DNA from: a virus
DNA: 20,233 nucleotides
Reading direction: 5' to 3' (one strand)
Virus genome (UHGV): UHGV-0876955
Shown here in pieces: positions 1 through 3,966 of this stretch. The position numbers and the translations under genes are program-made. How positions within the stretch are numbered: the stretch's first letter is position 1; each line of letters starts with the position of its first letter. The notes under the pieces were generated by a model, which did no database searches, was not told where the DNA came from, and saw nothing but the letters and a program-made list of their open reading frames with translations.

Positions 1-72
1 CCTATCCCCTGTGTGCCTTGAGAGACGCCGACCACTCCGTCTCTAAATTCAGAAAGTAACTCATTGGATTGA

Positions 73-2322
73 TACAGGCTTTCCACCGTTAACAAAGCTA
101 TTTCTGGTCGTTACGATGGCGGCTTCCCATGTGGTCGTATCGTCGAAGTATTCGGTCCTCCAAGTGCAGGGAAATGTGTTACCGCAGACACCATGCTGCT
201 GACGGAGCGTGGAATGGTAACAGTGAAAGAGTTGTTTGAGATTGAAGGGTACAAAGCGACATGCACTACTCGCGATGTAGAGCATAACGTTGGACTCATC
301 AATGAAAATGGCGTGATAGAGAAGACCTCACACCTGACATGGAACAACCGTCGCAAATTCAAGCGTATTAAGCTGGCATCAGGCGGTTATATCGAGGCTA
401 CGTTCCGTCACCCAATCCGTGTGGTTGACGACTTAGGTAATGTCGTCTGGCGACATGCTGAAAAAATCAGTGTAGGCGACACGATTCCTTCAATGGTTGG
501 CACACATCAATTCGGCGATCAGCACCTGGATGCCAATATCGCAAAACTGATGGGCTATTTAATTGCTGACGGATACGTCGCCTCTGAAAATTCAGTGAAT
601 TTTTCTAACACAGATCCTTTCATCAAGGATGAGTACTACCGCCTCATTTCGCTGGTATCAGACAAGATGCCAGTTACGAGAAAACATAACGGCTCGGAAG
701 ACCATGTGCTGTTTAGCAAAGAGGTGCGTTCGCTGCTTTTTAAAGAATATGGTCTGGAGTATGAGAAAGCTGCTGGCAAGCAGGTTCCGTTGAGTGTGCG
801 TCGCGCCAATAGCGAGGCTCAAATTGCATTCCTTCGCGGCTACTTTGAGCTGGAATGCCACGTCAATGATGGTCGCTGCATTGAGGTTGTGAGCGCGAGT
901 GGGCTGCTGCTACAGCAAATTCGCCTCATGCTCCTGAATCTGGGGATTACGTCAACTATCTCTGAAAAACACGTCGCGGGTTATGAAAATACATATTACC
1001 GGCTGTCATTCAGTGGCTCTAATTACGACCTTTTTCTGTCAACGATTGGTTTCGAATCTCCGGCACGTTTATCAGTGGCAACCAAACGGGACATTGGTTT
1101 TGACCGCACTTACTCAGGCTATGTTCCGCACATCAGCGGCTTAGTGAAATCACTCTACGAGTCGCTCACCAAGACCACCCGTGAAGACTACGCTCTGGTA
1201 GACCACGTTATTGGCCGCGGCGATCGTGTCGGAATAGACAAACTGCGAGAAATCTATGTCTCCTTCATTGGCAGAAAGAATCGTTTTAACGAGCATCTGT
1301 TTGCACAACTGGCAGCGGTAATTGGCTCTAACTTGTTCTACGACGAAGTCGTGGCTATTGAGGAAGGTGAAGCACCAACGTTCGACGTAGCGATGCCGGA
1401 AACACACTCTTTCTGGTCTAACGGGATTATCAGCCACAACACATTCCTTGCAACAGCAGCGATGATCTCCGCTCAAAAACAAGATGGTCTGGCGGTATTC
1501 CTCGATCATGAAAACAGTTTTGACGTTGGCCTGGCTGTAGCCAATGGCCTGAACGCAGATGAGGATGACGGTCAGTGGGTCTACAAACAGCCGGATACCT
1601 TCGAAGACTCCGTAGAGCTGATCGGCACAATCCTCAAGCTGGTGCGCGACGAAGAGCTTATTCCGGAAACAGCCCCTATCTGCATCGTAGCCGACTCTCT
1701 GGCGTCGATGGTTCCGAACTCGAAGGCTGAGAAGTTCGACAAGATGGCAGAAGGCACTGCGAAAGACAAAGATCAGCTGAACATGAACGACAACACGGCG
1801 CTGGCGCGCGCGACAAGTGCGAACTTCCCTACTCTGGCGCTTTGGGCGCGTAAGTACAACGCGTGCATCATCTTCTTGAACCAGGTGCGTACCAAAATTG
1901 GTGTGATGTTTGGCGATCCGACTACGTCTCCGGGTGGCGACTCTCCGAAGTTCTACGCGTCGGTGCGCATCCGTCTGGGTGCATCCGTCATGAAGGATGG
2001 CAAAGAGAAGATCGGCCAGGACGTAGGCGCAGAATGCATCAAAAACAAAGTTGCACCACCGTATGGCAAATGCACCTGGAAATTCTACTTCGATCCTACT
2101 CGTGGCCTCGACGTTATCGAATCGCTCGTCGAGTACATGCTGGAAGAAGGATACCTGCCAAAGAACGCCAGCGGGCGAGTTGAAATTGGTGACAAGAAAT
2201 ACACCAAATCGCAGATCGTCGAGATGTATCGGGAGAAGCCACTGGCTGAAATCATTGCGGCTTTGCAGGCAATCGACGACCGAAGAGCAAAAGACAACCC
2301 CACCGAGTCAGTAGAAGAGTAA
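73..2322 (+). CDS. recA: RecA-family recombinase precursor containing an intein; 5' end unresolved (frame opens at 73 after an in-frame TGA at 70-72, no start codon before the conserved core)
   Basis: Extein reads ...GGFPCGRIVEVFGPPSAGK | TFLATAAMISAQ...ICIVADSLASM...FLNQVRTKIGVMFGDPTTSPGGDSPKFYASVRIRLG..., matching RecA Walker A and the [25 protein letters not shown] core as I recall it from E. coli RecA. Stop TAA at 2320-2322. Confidence 0.8.
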   Translation, partial: YRLSTVNKAISGRYDGGFPCGRIVEVFGPPSAGKCVTADTMLLTERGMVTVKELFEIEGYKATCTTRDVEHNVGLINENGVIEKTSHLTWNNRRKFKRIKLASGGYIEATFRHPIRVVDDLGNVVWRHAEKISVGDTIPSMVGTHQFGDQHLDANIAKLMGYLIADGYVASENSVNFSNTDPFIKDEYYRLISLVSDKMPVTRKHNGSEDHVLFSKEVRSLLFKEYGLEYEKAAGKQVPLSVRRANSEAQIAFLRGYFELECHVNDGRCIEVVSASGLLLQQIRLMLLNLGITSTISEKHVAGYENTYYRLSFSGSNYDLFLSTIGFESPARLSVATKRDIGFDRTYSGYVPHISGLVKSLYESLTKTTREDYALVDHVIGRGDRVGIDKLREIYVSFIGRKNRFNEHLFAQLAAVIGSNLFYDEVVAIEEGEAPTFDVAMPETHSFWSNGIISHNTFLATAAMISAQKQDGLAVFLDHENSFDVGLAVANGLNADEDDGQWVYKQPDTFEDSVELIGTILKLVRDEELIPETAPICIVADSLASMVPNSKAEKFDKMAEGTAKDKDQLNMNDNTALARATSANFPTLALWARKYNACIIFLNQVRTKIGVMFGDPTTSPGGDSPKFYASVRIRLGASVMKDGKEKIGQDVGAECIKNKVAPPYGKCTWKFYFDPTRGLDVIESLVEYMLEEGYLPKNASGRVEIGDKKYTKSQIVEMYREKPLAEIIAALQAIDDRRAKDNPTESVEE
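175..1440 (+). mobile_element. Intein (422 codons) with LAGLIDADG homing-endonuclease domain, inserted between Lys and Thr of the RecA P-loop
   Basis: Begins with Cys (TGT 175-177) in CVTADTMLL (intein block A-like); two LAGLIDADG-type motifs LMGYLIADGY (547-576) and FLRGYFELECHVNDG (829-873); ends ...GIISHN (Asn AAC 1438-1440) followed by Thr +1, after which RecA sequence resumes in frame. Confidence 0.8.
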
Positions 2323-2328
2323 ACACAA

Positions 2329-2352
2329 GGCGTCCACAGGACGCCTTTTTTA
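2329..2352 (+). terminator. Rho-independent terminator after recA
   Basis: GGCGTCC-aca-GGACGCC stem followed by TTTTTTA. Confidence 0.6.
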
Positions 2353-2363
2353 TCTCTTGAAAA

Positions 2364-2382
2364 TATATAAGTACTTACTTAT
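2364..2382 (+). promoter_or_regulatory. Copy of recurring promoter-like motif TATATA-N-ACTTACYTAT
   Basis: tatataagtacttacttat; related copies at 4312-4334, 7825-7843, 19306-19324, each upstream of a + strand gene start. Confidence 0.35.
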
Positions 2383-2414
2383 TATTTTCGCATAACAACC
2401 ACATAGGAAAACAC

Positions 2415-2615
2415 ATGATCAAAATCTATCTATTGGCAGTATCCACAGGCCTTTCAGTGGCTCTCATCTACGGTTTACTAGTTCCGTCGCTGATTTCTAC
2501 CAAGAGTGATTTAGCCGTCATGTTTGGAGTTATCGTTGGTTTTGGTGCTCCTGTAATCGGTCTTATTGCTGGTCGTAAGTTTATCAACTCATTAATCAAA
2601 GCAAAGGGGAAATAA
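2415..2615 (+). CDS. Small hydrophobic membrane protein (66 aa), probably two TM segments
   Basis: ORF preceded by conserved start element aaccacataggaaaacacATG; hydrophobic sequence LLAVSTGLSVALIYGLLVPSLI ... VMFGVIVGFGAPVIGLIAG; stop overlaps SD of next gene. Confidence 0.5.
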   Translation: MIKIYLLAVSTGLSVALIYGLLVPSLISTKSDLAVMFGVIVGFGAPVIGLIAGRKFINSLIKAKGK

Positions 2616-2618
2616 GTA

Positions 2619-3449
2619 ATGAAGAAAGGTTTACTTGCAGTTGCTCTGGCGGCTATTTGCACAATGGGTCTTACTGGCTGCGATCGCGTGGAGCCTGGAT
2701 ACGTTGGCATCAAAGTAAACAAATTAGGTGAAGACAAAGGGATTGGTGAAGTGGTTGGCGTTGGTCGCCAATGGACAGGTCTTAATACCGAACTTTACGT
2801 ATTCCCGACCTTCAAACAAATGAAGACCTACGACGAGCCGTTCACATTCCAGATGAGTGACGGTACTGCTATTGGTCACAAAATTGGCGTTGCGTATCTG
2901 GTTAATCGTGACAAGGTAACGACGGTGTTCCAGACCTATCGCAAAGGCGTAGACGATATCACCGAATCAGATCTGCGTCAGAAAATTGCCGACTCTCTAA
3001 ACCGTTTGGCCAGCCGTATGACCACTGACTCATTTATCGACGGTGGTAAGGCACAATTGCTGGACAACGCACTGAAAGATATTCAGAAAGAGATGTCTCC
3101 GGTTGGTATTGAGGTACTGAGCCTGTCATGGGTTGGAAAGCCTGATTACCCAAAAACCGTCATTGAATCTATTAACGCCAAAGTAACGGCTAACCAGCGT
3201 ACTCTGCAACGTCAGCAGGAAGTTGAACAACGTAAAGCTGAGGCGAATATGCTACGTGAACAGGCTAATGGTGAAGCTGATGCTATCCGTGCTCGTGCGC
3301 AAGCAGAAGCAGACGCCATTCGTCTGCGCGGTGAAGCTCTGCGTCAAAACCCGAACGTTATGGAGCTGGAAGCCATCAATAAATGGAATGGCCAGTTACC
3401 GCAGTACATGACTCAAGGGGCTAACACTCCTTTCATTACAGTGAAATAA
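2619..3449 (+). CDS. SPFH/band-7 (prohibitin/HflC-like) lipoprotein
   Basis: Signal peptide with lipobox MKKGLLAVALAAICTMGLTGC; SPFH-like core and C-terminal Ala/Glu/Arg-rich helix (EADAIRARAQAEADAIRLRGEALRQNP) typical of band-7 proteins; SD aagggga upstream. Confidence 0.65.
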   Translation: MKKGLLAVALAAICTMGLTGCDRVEPGYVGIKVNKLGEDKGIGEVVGVGRQWTGLNTELYVFPTFKQMKTYDEPFTFQMSDGTAIGHKIGVAYLVNRDKVTTVFQTYRKGVDDITESDLRQKIADSLNRLASRMTTDSFIDGGKAQLLDNALKDIQKEMSPVGIEVLSLSWVGKPDYPKTVIESINAKVTANQRTLQRQQEVEQRKAEANMLREQANGEADAIRARAQAEADAIRLRGEALRQNPNVMELEAINKWNGQLPQYMTQGANTPFITVK

Positions 3450-3466
3450 CTCCCCTAAAAAGTTCA

Positions 3467-3491
3467 GGCGTCCAGTTGGACGCCTTTTTTA
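3467..3491 (+). terminator. Rho-independent terminator
   Basis: GGCGTCC-agtt-GGACGCC followed by TTTTTTAT; near-duplicate of the stem at 2329-2345. Confidence 0.6.
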
Positions 3492-3540: not shown

Positions 3541-3966
3541 ATGACAGCTATTAAGAAACTCTACGATGCTGCAAACGTGGCTCTGGATGTTATTGATGAT
3601 GAAGTAGCAAAAGGCTTTCCTGAACCTGATTGGGCGCATCAGCTACGAAACGCTATCGCAGAAATGACCCCACCAGATCCAACCCCCGACGAGACAGACT
3701 GGCAGCGATTCATCCGTATGTACGCTCAGGAAATAGGTCCAACGCCAACGGCAGAGCAGGCAATGCTGCTGAAATACTTCAAAGAGGCGGGAGAGGATTT
3801 ACCAATTGATGACTCAGCATATTGGTTCCACTGCGCATGGCGTAAGTATGACGTGATATTCACACAAGGCATGGGAAGCAAAGATATGGTTGTGTGGCAT
3901 CTACTCCATATAGACACAGCCGTTGACAGAGTTATTGAACAGTTTTTCCCTAAACAAGAAGATTGA
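3541..3966 (+). CDS. Hypothetical acidic protein (141 aa)
   Basis: ORF with SD gaaagga 8 nt upstream; strongly Asp/Glu/Pro-rich. Confidence 0.5.
   Translation: MTAIKKLYDAANVALDVIDDEVAKGFPEPDWAHQLRNAIAEMTPPDPTPDETDWQRFIRMYAQEIGPTPTAEQAMLLKYFKEAGEDLPIDDSAYWFHCAWRKYDVIFTQGMGSKDMVVWHLLHIDTAVDRVIEQFFPKQED

What the first reader, a model, noticed from the sequence alone, without database searches (positions are those of the whole stretch)
2415..3449. Small membrane protein plus SPFH/band-7 lipoprotein two-gene module
A 66-aa two-TM protein is coupled to a lipobox-bearing SPFH protein, framed by a promoter-like motif and a terminator. Band-7 proteins usually pair with NfeD-like membrane partners. 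In a mobile element such a module could act in membrane-level exclusion of superinfecting phage or in abortive-infection-type membrane control. The function is not determinable from sequence.
Basis: inference. Interest (0 to 1): 0.4.

Follow-up and report, generated by a model that had tools for sequence, protein, structure and literature searches.

The report
Phage membrane hairpin plus SPFH lipoprotein pair
The two genes are real and form a conserved, uncharacterised module (a tiny two-helix membrane protein plus a lipid-anchored SPFH "cage" protein, the same pair as phage N4 gp19-gp20) found in many unrelated phages, sometimes fused into one protein, and also as a fixed chromosomal pair in one bacterial family; its function has not been tested.

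Summary
Window 2415-2615 encodes a 66-aa N-in/C-in two-helix hairpin. Window 2619-3449 encodes a 276-aa lipobox (LTGC, +2 Asp) SPFH protein. A promoter-like site and two terminators bracket the pair. The window is an SSU5/pHCM2-like phage-plasmid. The new result is that the pair is an ancient unit. A hairpin with the loop motif P-x-L-x-S sits just upstream of this SPFH subfamily in every close viral locus examined (80/80). It is also there in most distant phages, temperate and virulent, including N4 gp19-gp20, rV5-like, T7-like, crAss-like and Lak phages. About 12% of family representatives are in-frame fusions of the two proteins. The partner is not NfeD, and the SPFH protein is not HflK/C by curated thresholds, although its predicted fold (pLDDT 93) matches full-length cage-forming SPFH subunits. 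In virulent phages the pair lies among early or replication genes, never in a lysis cassette. A vertically inherited copy sits at a syntenic site in Dyella genomes. The best reading is an autonomous SPFH scaffold on the periplasmic face of the inner membrane with a dedicated membrane partner. Exclusion of superinfecting phage remains possible but is unproven.

The parts
2327..2347 (+). Intrinsic-terminator-like hairpin (9-bp stem AAGGCGTCC/GGACGCCTT plus T-run) ending the upstream recA/intein gene. It insulates the module from read-through.
   Evidence: sequence
2357..2385 (+). Sigma-70-type promoter-like site, TTGAAA-17 nt-TATTAT (10/12), ending 29 nt upstream of the small gene's ATG.
   Evidence: The class is not enriched over shuffles, so support is positional only. 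No equivalent site precedes the pair in P88 or phiP27.
2415..2615 (+). Small gene: a 66-aa N-in/C-in two-TM hairpin. It carries the conserved periplasmic-side motif P24-x-L-x-S28 and G38, and a basic cytoplasmic tail (GRKFINSLIKAKGK). It belongs to PHROG 1130 and is the homologue of phage N4 gp19.
   Evidence: dN/dS 0.1-0.25; no Pfam or PDB match
2604..2609 (+). Shine-Dalgarno-like AAGGGG for the SPFH gene, inside the 3' end of the small gene. The small gene's stop is at 2613-2615 and the next ATG at 2619. Homologues overlap by 4-8 nt, which suggests translational coupling.
   Evidence: sequence; overlaps in P88, phiP27, Moo19 and N4
2619..2681 (+). Signal peptide and lipobox of the SPFH protein (MKKGLLAVALAAICTMGLTG|C). 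Cys21 is the predicted lipidated residue. Asp at +2 is the E. coli inner-membrane retention signal (my own knowledge of the +2 rule).
   Evidence: Cys at least 90% conserved; +2/+3 = DR in 96 of 120 close homologues
2619..3449 (+). SPFH/Band-7 lipoprotein gene (276 aa). SPFH domain at residues about 21-176, a long helix 179-243, a helix 245-255, and a conserved C-terminal K-W-x-G-x-L-P motif. It belongs to PHROG 200 and is the homologue of N4 gp20 (64% identity).
3466..3485 (+). Intrinsic-terminator-like hairpin (AGGCGTCC-agtt-GGACGCCT plus T-run) closing the module. Its stem is nearly the same as that of the upstream terminator.

Best explanation
The two genes form one functional unit: a 'hairpin plus SPFH lipoprotein' membrane-scaffold module.

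Shown by the analyses: (a) The small protein is a two-TM hairpin with both ends in the cytoplasm. Its only strongly conserved residues (P24, S28, G38) lie at the periplasmic end of the hairpin. (b) The large protein has a signal peptide and a lipobox. Its predicted fold is that of full-length cage-forming SPFH subunits (HflK/C, prohibitin, erlin, stomatin, flotillin, QmcA). (c) The two genes travel together across unrelated phage types and are fused in-frame in about 12% of family representatives.

Inferred: the SPFH protein is exported, lipidated at Cys21 and, because of Asp+2, kept on the outer leaflet of the inner membrane. There it oligomerises into a ring or cage over a membrane patch, in the same orientation as HflK/C. 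The hairpin is its integral-membrane partner and contacts it through the short periplasmic loop. It would take the place of the NfeD partner or the N-terminal TM 'fence' of other SPFH systems.

Biological role (the weakest step): an autonomous device that organises or protects the inner membrane. Phages express it early in infection. This phage-plasmid would express it from its own promoter during carriage, to keep the host membrane functional and insulated. Blocking entry of a superinfecting phage could be one consequence.

My confidence by step: functional unit and architecture about 0.85; inner-membrane periplasmic cage about 0.6; membrane-conditioning role about 0.35. The overall figure of 0.4 reflects the whole chain including the role.
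For: Adjacency. A hairpin HMM built hits the ORF directly upstream of the SPFH gene in 80/80 close IMG/VR loci. It does so in 12/16 diverse GenBank phages, 26 of the 28 Paxi-like loci whose SPFH match is full-length and at least 40% identical (26 of all 40 loci scored), and 53/74 bacterial loci, including nearly every locus at 40% SPFH identity or more; the exceptions are four gut-metagenome loci at 46-51%. crAss-like and phiEa104 loci carry diverged hairpins, read by eye. The backbones include SSU5-like, P2-like (P88), lambdoid (phiP27), N4 and N4-like, rV5-like, T7-like, Lak and crAss-like phages.

Fusions. 18 of 150 representative clusters are hairpin + linker + signal peptide with Cys + SPFH. 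Two were confirmed on phage-like contigs.

Topology. K/R counts in 18 hairpins are 87 in the C-tail, 18 at the N-terminus and 10 in the loop. The fused forms have three TM segments, which places the SPFH domain in the periplasm.

Inner-membrane location. The window protein has Asp at +2, as do 96/120 close homologues. Several family representatives have no lipobox Cys and instead look like uncleaved N-terminal TM anchors.

Fold. The model has pLDDT 93.1. Foldseek matches HflK 7vhq_E at E=7.5e-14, and also HflC, prohibitin, erlin, stomatin, flotillin and QmcA over 240-300 aligned columns.

Expression context. In virulent phages the pair lies next to DNA polymerase, RNA polymerase or exonuclease genes and never next to an endolysin.

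Autonomous cellular function. A syntenic chromosomal pair occurs across at least 11 Dyella species, next to a BlaR1/BlaI-like sensor-repressor pair.

Selection. Both genes are under purifying selection.
Against: No experiment exists for any member. The papers found only speculate (PMC13239085, PMC10269572). Cage formation is inferred from a monomer model, and I could not compute a hetero-oligomer model or a contact prediction. Most family members have S, T, G, E or Y at +2. In E. coli hosts (N4 gp20 has Tyr, 4MG has Glu) that predicts outer-membrane sorting, which would separate the SPFH protein from an inner-membrane hairpin. A prophage-encoded SPFH protein of P. multocida was found in outer-membrane vesicles (PMC9872710), though I did not verify that it is homologous to this family. 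The lipobox Cys is kept in the fused forms, so a fusion does not prove inner-membrane tethering. 'Membrane conditioning' is a broad role with only contextual support. The BlaI-type boxes in Dyella lie about 350 nt from the pair and may regulate only blaI itself.
Confidence: 0.4

Rival explanations
1. Superinfection exclusion. The module is made early in infection or during carriage. It blocks genome entry, or the periplasmic steps, of a second phage. This would be functionally analogous to T4 Imm (a small membrane protein) plus Sp (a periplasmic protein), or to the lipoproteins Llp and Cor.
For: The placement is early/middle, among replication genes, as for T4 imm and sp (the T4 comparison is from my own knowledge). 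The window copy has its own promoter and terminators, which would allow expression in the plasmid state. In N4 and Moo19 the gene immediately upstream is annotated 'superinfection exclusion, similar to P22 gp17'. The N4 exclusion system is explicitly uncharacterised (PMC12642591). Both proteins sit at the membrane or periplasm, where entry takes place.
Against: Known exclusion proteins are narrow in specificity and evolve fast. This SPFH protein is conserved from Proteobacteria phages to crAss-like and Lak phages, with dN/dS about 0.03. A vertically inherited chromosomal copy in Dyella implies a function that does not depend on phage competition. No PADLOC match. No gp19/gp20 mutants appeared among more than 60 N4 rapid-lysis isolates (PMC12642591), although that screen did not select for loss of exclusion.
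Confidence: 0.2
2. An HflK/C mimic. The periplasmic SPFH cage corrals or modulates the universal membrane protease FtsH (or another membrane protease). This would alter turnover of phage or host proteins, for example CII-type regulators, LpxC or membrane proteins, and so affect the lysis-lysogeny choice or host takeover.
For: HflK is the only PDB sequence hit (E=0.007) and the best Foldseek hit. Sub-threshold NCBIfam hits are to HflC and HflK. The orientation is the same as HflK/C: an N-terminal anchor and a periplasmic SPFH domain. That phages target FtsH (lambda CIII) is from my own knowledge. Genome papers have proposed this role (PMC10269572).
Against: HflC and HflK scores are 30 and 19 bits against cut-offs of 134 and 159. 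Structural similarity to eukaryotic prohibitin and erlin is just as high, so the resemblance is to the superfamily in general. There is one SPFH gene rather than a K/C pair. A dedicated hairpin partner has no counterpart in the HflKC-FtsH complex. Virulent phages with no lysogeny decision also carry the module.
Confidence: 0.15
3. A lysis-timing device. The hairpin is a pinholin- or antiholin-like membrane protein, and the SPFH cage sequesters it. Together they would control when the membrane is depolarised, for example in the lysis inhibition seen in N4.
For: The hairpin has the size, topology and basic C-tail of class II holins (the holin comparison is from my own knowledge). N4, which shows lysis inhibition, carries the module.
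Against: The pair was never adjacent to an endolysin or spanin in the loci examined. No holin Pfam family matches; there was one weak hit in 18 sequences. The N4 lysis genes are gp60-63, and rapid-lysis mutants map elsewhere (PMC12642591). The chromosomal Dyella copies have no lysis context.
Confidence: 0.07
4. A lysogenic-conversion surface or vesicle lipoprotein that benefits the bacterial host (virulence, capsule or biofilm effects, TLR2 stimulation) rather than the phage.
For: A prophage-encoded SPFH 'HflK/C-like' protein, PM0222 of P. multocida, is released in outer-membrane vesicles and its deletion attenuates virulence (PMC9872710). PHROG 1130 is filed under 'moron, auxiliary metabolic gene and host takeover'. 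The window copy has a moron-like promoter and terminator frame.
Against: I did not verify that PM0222 is homologous to this family. Virulent phages, and phages of non-pathogens, carry the pair. In P88 and phiP27 it sits inside early lytic operons without a promoter of its own. Asp at +2 predicts inner-membrane retention for the window protein.
Confidence: 0.05

Closest known systems
Phage N4 gp19 (membrane protein) and gp20 (lipoprotein); the N4-like Moo19 gp30/gp31
   Same: Same two-gene module in the same order, with overlapping or near-abutting genes. gp20 is 64% identical over 274 aa and gp19 is 39% identical over 49 aa, including the Y-G-x-L-x-P-S-x-x-S loop. Both pairs fall in PHROG 200 and PHROG 1130.
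   Different: N4 is strictly virulent, and there the pair lies in the middle-gene region without the promoter/terminator frame. gp20 has Tyr rather than Asp at +2. I found no published function for gp19 or gp20.
E. coli HflK/HflC-FtsH complex (PDB 7VHQ, 7WI3, 9CZ2)
   Same: An SPFH domain, a long coiled-coil helix and a C-terminal cap segment. The anchor is N-terminal and the bulk of the protein is periplasmic. HflK is the best sequence and structure hit in the PDB.
   Different: Identity is only 16-19%. The curated HflC and HflK thresholds are missed by a wide margin. The anchor is a lipid, not a TM helix. There is a single SPFH gene rather than a K/C pair. The partner is a 66-aa hairpin, not a protease. 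No link to FtsH was shown.
SPFH-NfeD operons (E. coli QmcA-YbbJ, PDB 8Z5G; YqiK-YqiJ; archaeal stomatin-STOPP)
   Same: An SPFH scaffold gene adjacent to, and co-transcribed with, a small integral-membrane partner. Fused versions of the two occur in both systems. QmcA is a significant fold match.
   Different: The partner has no NfeD/OB-fold domain: it gives no Pfam hit and is only 66 aa. QmcA faces the cytoplasm (my own knowledge), whereas this protein is exported. Gene order is partner first.
T4 Imm and Sp superinfection-exclusion proteins
   Same: Analogy only: a small inner-membrane protein plus an exported periplasmic protein, made early and encoded among replication genes (my own knowledge).
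   Different: I did not test for sequence or fold relationship. imm and sp are not adjacent in T4, and Sp is not an SPFH protein. T4 itself lacks the module, while some T4-like phages carry SPFH genes (PMC1524935).

Membership tests
SPFH / Band 7 superfamily (Pfam PF01145) | Match to the Band_7 profile above the gathering score | tested here: met
   E=2.6e-30, 106.2 bits against a cut-off of 23.6; residues 23-209 cover profile positions 2-176 of 176
SPFH / Band 7 superfamily (Pfam PF01145) | SPFH alpha/beta domain followed by a long coiled-coil helix and a C-terminal oligomerisation segment, as in cage-forming members | tested here: met
   AF2 model pLDDT 93.1 with strands 21-95 and 164-176 and helices 97-159, 179-243 and 245-255. 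Full-length Foldseek matches to HflK/C, prohibitin, erlin, stomatin, flotillin and QmcA. Oligomerisation itself was not tested.
Bacterial lipoprotein | N-terminal signal peptide ending in a lipobox [LVI][ASTVI][GAS]C | tested here: met
   MKK + hydrophobic core + LTGC (residues 18-21). The Cys is at least 90% conserved in 92 family members. Lipidation itself cannot be tested with these tools.
Bacterial lipoprotein | Inner-membrane retention signal (Asp at +2, E. coli rule) | tested here: inconclusive
   The window protein and 96/120 close homologues have C-D-R. Among the 98 of 150 distant representatives in which the lipobox pattern was found, S, T and G predominate at +2 (21, 19 and 10, against 15 with D). 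The effect of Arg at +3 is not known to me.
HflK / HflC (FtsH modulators) | Score above the NCBIfam equivalog cut-offs TIGR01932 (HflC) and TIGR01933 (HflK) | tested here: not met
   30.2 bits against 134.4, and 18.7 bits against 159.4
HflK / HflC (FtsH modulators) | Two paralogous SPFH genes (hflK and hflC) with N-terminal TM anchors | tested here: not met
   A single SPFH gene with a lipobox anchor. The neighbouring gene is a 66-aa hairpin.
HflK / HflC (FtsH modulators) | Physical association with FtsH | not testable with these tools
   Needs pull-down or cryo-EM
SPFH-NfeD operon | Partner protein carries the NfeD C-terminal OB-fold domain (Pfam PF01957) | tested here: not met
   No Pfam family at E<=0.1 for the window hairpin. 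No recurrent Pfam family among 18 family members at E<=1. At 66 aa, two TM helices fill the protein.
SPFH-NfeD operon | SPFH gene adjacent to and co-oriented with a small membrane-protein gene, with occasional fusions | tested here: met
PHROG 200 (lipoprotein) and PHROG 1130 (membrane protein) | Profile match | tested here: met
   E=3e-108 and E=1.6e-25. PHROG 1130 matches 10 of 18 hairpins.
Known or candidate anti-phage defence systems (PADLOC-DB 2.0.0) | Match of either protein to any defence-system model | tested here: not met
   0 families at E<=0.1 for both proteins
Holin / pinholin | Small TM protein encoded in a lysis cassette next to an endolysin or spanin, or a match to a holin family | tested here: not met
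   The architecture is compatible (2 TM, basic tail). No endolysin is adjacent in the loci examined. Only one weak holin Pfam hit in 18 sequences (E=0.009).

The most novel reading that the evidence does not exclude
The hairpin plus SPFH-lipoprotein pair is a previously unrecognised membrane organelle found across tailed phages of diderm bacteria. It would be a periplasm-facing SPFH cage with its own dedicated TM partner, including fused forms that may be cut apart by lipoprotein signal peptidase. Tailed phages from Proteobacteria to Bacteroidota, including model phage N4, would deploy it early to wall off part of the host inner membrane. If so, it could be the missing N4 superinfection-exclusion or membrane-protection system and a new class of SPFH partner.
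Probability: 0.3. Interest if true: 0.75.

Novelty: new variant of a known kind. Interest (0 to 1): 0.55.

Why it matters
SPFH cages (HflK/C, flotillin, stomatin, prohibitin, erlin, QmcA) have only recently been resolved. What they enclose, and why, is still an open question.

This module is a compact two-gene version with a minimal, non-NfeD partner and natural fusions. It occurs in genetically tractable systems: phage N4 gp19-gp20, E. coli phage-plasmids, and plasmids in Yersinia (a near-identical copy lies on a 108-kb Y. pestis contig). About 0.8% of GenBank phage records and about 14% of complete E. coli genomes carry a copy.

Many deposited records annotate the protein as 'serine protease' or 'transposase', and the hairpin gene is sometimes not called at all.

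Knowing what the module does would show how phages manage the host inner membrane. It could also supply the N4 exclusion function that is still uncharacterised.

Tried and rejected
(1) The word-index homology search with the 66-aa protein found only 32 close relatives. Distant relatives had to be recovered with an HMM built from neighbours and from fusion N-termini.

(2) The search for related loci with the 92-sequence alignment failed because the alignment has no conserved 7-10-mer. An 8-sequence alignment returned only close relatives, so diversity was sampled with distant single-protein queries and 19 GenBank records.

(3) The hairpin gave no meaningful match in Pfam or PDB profile searches, only transmembrane noise.

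(4) PADLOC gave nothing.

(5) Base composition: the module is not compositionally distinct from its flanks (GC 0.43-0.49), so this gives no evidence of recent foreign origin.

(6) The downstream DUF7238 gene (3541-3966) was considered as a third member and rejected. It lies beyond the terminator and is not conserved next to the pair in P88 or phiP27.

(7) A dedicated promoter in P88 and phiP27: none was found just upstream of the pair, so the promoter/terminator frame is specific to this lineage.

(8) Literature searches on SPFH with prophage, anti-phage, superinfection or phage-encoded, and on N4 gp20, found no experimental work on this family. The N4 lysis preprint does not mention gp19 or gp20.

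(9) I did not model a natural fusion with the second AF2 job. The tool returns no contacts or PAE, so the interface could not be assessed.
Full report
**1. The observation**

- The small protein has two hydrophobic stretches (about residues 4-22 and 33-51) and a basic tail.
- The large protein matches Pfam Band_7 at E=2.6e-30, 106 bits against a cut-off of 23.6.
- It begins MKKGLLAVALAAICTMGLTGC-DR. This is a signal peptide with a lipobox, and Asp follows the Cys.
- A Shine-Dalgarno-like AAGGGG lies inside the end of the small gene, and its stop codon is 3 nt from the next ATG.
- The promoter-like site TTGAAA-17-TATTAT is at 2357-2385. The terminator-like hairpins are at 2327-2347 and 3466-3485.
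- The terminators are strong and enriched over shuffles (7 found, 1.9 expected). The promoter is a good 10/12 match, but promoter-like sites are not enriched here (3 found, 4.0 expected), so only its position supports it.
- Both genes are under purifying selection in comparisons with close relatives. dN/dS is about 0.1-0.25 for the small gene and about 0.03 for the SPFH gene.

**2. Where the window comes from**

- The region is 94-99% identical to 107-109 kb Escherichia phages CMS-2020a, PhiR41_1 and Cyrano.
- It also matches 248 plasmid records, mostly non-mobilizable E. coli plasmids of about 107-113 kb, plus 62 Yersinia plasmids.
- Cyrano annotates UvsY, an SSB, an exonuclease, RecA, then 'membrane protein' and 'stomatin-like integral membrane protein', and later RepA.
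- The window itself encodes an intein-containing RecA, a Rep3-type initiator, both ribonucleotide reductase subunits and thymidylate synthase.
- Taken together, this is an SSU5/pHCM2-like phage-plasmid. That name is my own classification.
- In complete E. coli genomes, 737 of 5426 have a match and 195 carry the full window-type pair. The matches are split between chromosomes (418 places) and plasmids (414). The module is therefore accessory and mobile in E. coli.

**3. The pair is a conserved unit**

The same arrangement occurs in unrelated temperate phages.
- In P2-like P88 it is gp11 (67 aa, membrane protein) plus gp12 (lipoprotein), inside the cox-to-A early operon.
- In lambdoid Stx phage phiP27 an unannotated 62-aa ORF overlaps the start of L05 by 4 nt.

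tblastn finds the SPFH protein in 413 of 50,697 phage records. Many are strictly virulent: N4-like, rV5-like, Felix O1-like, LUZ24-like and T7-like phages, phiCbK, crAss-like phages and Lak megaphages.

I built an HMM of the hairpin from five separate hairpins and 17 fusion N-termini. Its hits on the ORF upstream of the SPFH gene, on the same strand, are:

| Set | Loci with a hairpin hit |
|---|---|
| Close IMG/VR loci | 80/80 |
| Diverse GenBank phages | 12/16 |
| Paxi-like IMG/VR loci, SPFH match full-length and at least 40% identical | 26/28 (26/40 of all loci scored) |
| Bacterial loci | 53/74 |

- Among the bacterial loci, nearly every locus with at least 40% SPFH identity has the hairpin. 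The exceptions are four gut-metagenome loci (two Sutterella, one Oscillospiraceae, one Hallella) at 46-51%.
- crAss-like loci and phiEa104 carry diverged hairpins with loops F-H/E-M-M-S and L-P-D-F-M-S. These were read by eye.
- In 4MG, SNUABM55, TL and phiEa104 one extra small gene lies between the two.
- Model phage N4 has the pair as gp19-gp20. gp20 is 64% identical and gp19 is 39% identical to the window proteins.

The strongest evidence is fusion.
- 18 of the 150 best 50%-identity cluster representatives are single ORFs of the form hairpin, basic linker, signal-peptide-like segment with the conserved Cys, then SPFH.
- Two of these were recovered on phage-like contigs and translate exactly.

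**4. Anatomy and topology**

- An 18-sequence hairpin alignment has near-invariant S28 and G38, and P24 in 14 of 18 sequences.
- K/R counts are 87 in the C-tail, 18 at the N-terminus and 10 in the loop. Both ends are therefore cytoplasmic, and the conserved residues lie at the periplasmic turn.
- The three-TM fused forms give the same topology and put the SPFH domain in the periplasm.
- The hairpin has no Pfam family and no PDB relative, so it is not NfeD.
- The AF2 model of the SPFH protein is confident (pLDDT 93.1, pTM 0.73). It shows an SPFH domain, a 65-residue helix (179-243), a short helix and an extended tail.
- Foldseek aligns the model over 240-300 columns with full-length HflK, HflC, prohibitin, erlin, stomatin, flotillin and QmcA subunits, at 13-19% identity.
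- The curated HflC and HflK models score far below their thresholds.
- The family is sizeable: 195 clusters at E<1e-30 and 902 at E<1e-10.

Which membrane holds the lipoprotein is uncertain.
- The window protein and 96 of 120 close homologues have Asp at +2. This is the E. coli inner-membrane retention rule, which I cite from my own knowledge.
- Several family members lack the Cys and look like signal-anchored TM proteins.
- Both facts point to the periplasmic face of the inner membrane.
- However, most distant members, and N4 gp20, have other residues at +2.

**5. Context and function**

- In virulent phages the pair sits among early or middle genes: next to RNA polymerase 2 in N4-like phages, DNA polymerase in ProddE, CKB-S1 and Atlee, and exonuclease or ligase genes in 4MG and phiEa104.
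- It was never next to an endolysin.
- In P88 and phiP27 it has no promoter of its own. Only the phage-plasmid lineage has the promoter/terminator frame.
- PADLOC finds nothing.
- This pattern argues against abortive infection or host defence as the general role.
- It is compatible with an early function at the envelope. That could include superinfection exclusion, which is stated to be uncharacterised for N4 (PMC12642591).

The genome scan gave an unexpected result.
- About 35 Dyella/Rhodanobacteraceae genomes among the scan's hits carry the pair.
- Flanking genes were compared in 16 of them. A BlaR1-like M56 peptidase and a BlaI-like repressor lie upstream in 11 of the 15 compared with the reference, and ribonucleotide reductase small subunit lies downstream in 10. 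A hemerythrin-like gene follows the pair in only some.
- Two perfect TACAnnTGTA palindromes lie at the blaI start.
- The module therefore also works as a vertically inherited cellular gene pair. This favours a generic membrane or envelope function that phages have borrowed.

**6. Literature**

I found no experimental study of this family. Genome papers call its presence in phages unexplained or speculate about an HflC-like role (PMC13239085, PMC10269572). A prophage SPFH protein of P. multocida is released in outer-membrane vesicles and contributes to virulence (PMC9872710). I did not verify that it is homologous to this family.

**7. Verdict**

- The module is best described as a new, phage-borne variant of the 'SPFH scaffold plus membrane partner' theme, with a novel hairpin partner.
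- Its architecture and the coupling of the two genes are well supported.
- The cage on the inner membrane is inferred.
- The biological role is open: membrane conditioning or protection (about 0.35), superinfection exclusion (about 0.2), FtsH modulation (about 0.15), lysis timing (about 0.07), or a host-benefit surface lipoprotein (about 0.05).

Noticed in passing
window 1-2322: The upstream recA gene carries a LAGLIDADG intein (Pfam RecA, LAGLIDADG_3 and Intein_splicing). Compared with phage Cyrano, the N-extein has a 1-nt deletion near window position 90, which puts a stop codon at about position 70. The first 45 nt or so of the window do not match Cyrano. So recA may be frameshifted here, or this is a homopolymer sequencing error. 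RefSeq annotates this gene as 'LAGLIDADG family homing endonuclease' on several plasmids.
   Followed up: partly
window 2327-2347 and 3466-3485: The two terminators that bracket the module share almost the same stem (AGGCGTCC...GGACGCCT followed by TTTTTTAT). They look like a repeated cassette boundary.
   Followed up: no
window 3541-3966: The downstream gene is a DUF7238 / PHROG 1451 protein of unknown function. One metagenomic protein (P0018, 303 aa) joins the SPFH N-terminal 82% to DUF7238, probably through a deletion.
   Followed up: partly
L002 4759-4947 (phage phiP27, NC_003356): The hairpin gene is not annotated in phiP27. Across GenBank the SPFH gene is variously labelled 'serine protease', 'transposase', 'transposase fusion protein', 'HflK' or 'lipoprotein'. 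These are propagated misannotations.
   Followed up: yes
L005 2329-2493, L097 1784-1957, L006 2225-2443, L007 2277-2498: Three-gene variants exist: an extra 54-73-aa gene sits between the hairpin and the SPFH gene in rV5-like, LUZ24-like and Felix O1-like phages. By eye, the rV5-like insert (MLLNLKASTWEKLQHLARVKNKSAAALVAKIV...) looks like a ribbon-helix-helix protein.
   Followed up: no
L246 1-5100 (Dyella halodurans chromosome) and about 35 related loci, L242-L283: A syntenic chromosomal copy of the pair occurs across Dyella/Rhodanobacteraceae. It is flanked by a divergent BlaR1-like M56 peptidase plus BlaI-like repressor, a hemerythrin (in some species only) and the RNR small subunit. Two perfect palindromes, TTGACTACAnnTGTAGTCAA, lie at L246 1885-1903 and 1913-1931 (2 found, 0.01 expected).
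   Followed up: partly
L031 and L052 compared with window 2415-3449: In these loci the SPFH gene is nearly identical to the window's (dS 0.02-0.12), but the hairpin gene is much more diverged (dS 0.68). This indicates recombination between the two genes. Likewise, megablast identity to phiP27 and P88 starts only after the signal peptide.
   Followed up: partly
L222 218-520: On one metagenomic phage contig, the fused hairpin-SPFH gene lies two genes downstream of an Acb2/Tad1-hairpin (anti-CBASS/anti-Thoeris sponge) gene, within a run of small early genes.
   Followed up: no
L229 and L230, 1527-2501 (Shigella flexneri and E. coli chromosomes): A roughly 770-bp IS1-like insertion separates the hairpin gene from the SPFH gene and alters the hairpin C-terminus.
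   Followed up: partly
P0157-P0273 (fusion proteins): The fused forms keep the lipobox-position Cys after an internal signal-peptide-like segment. They may therefore be cleaved by lipoprotein signal peptidase into a three-TM fragment plus a mature lipoprotein.
   Followed up: no
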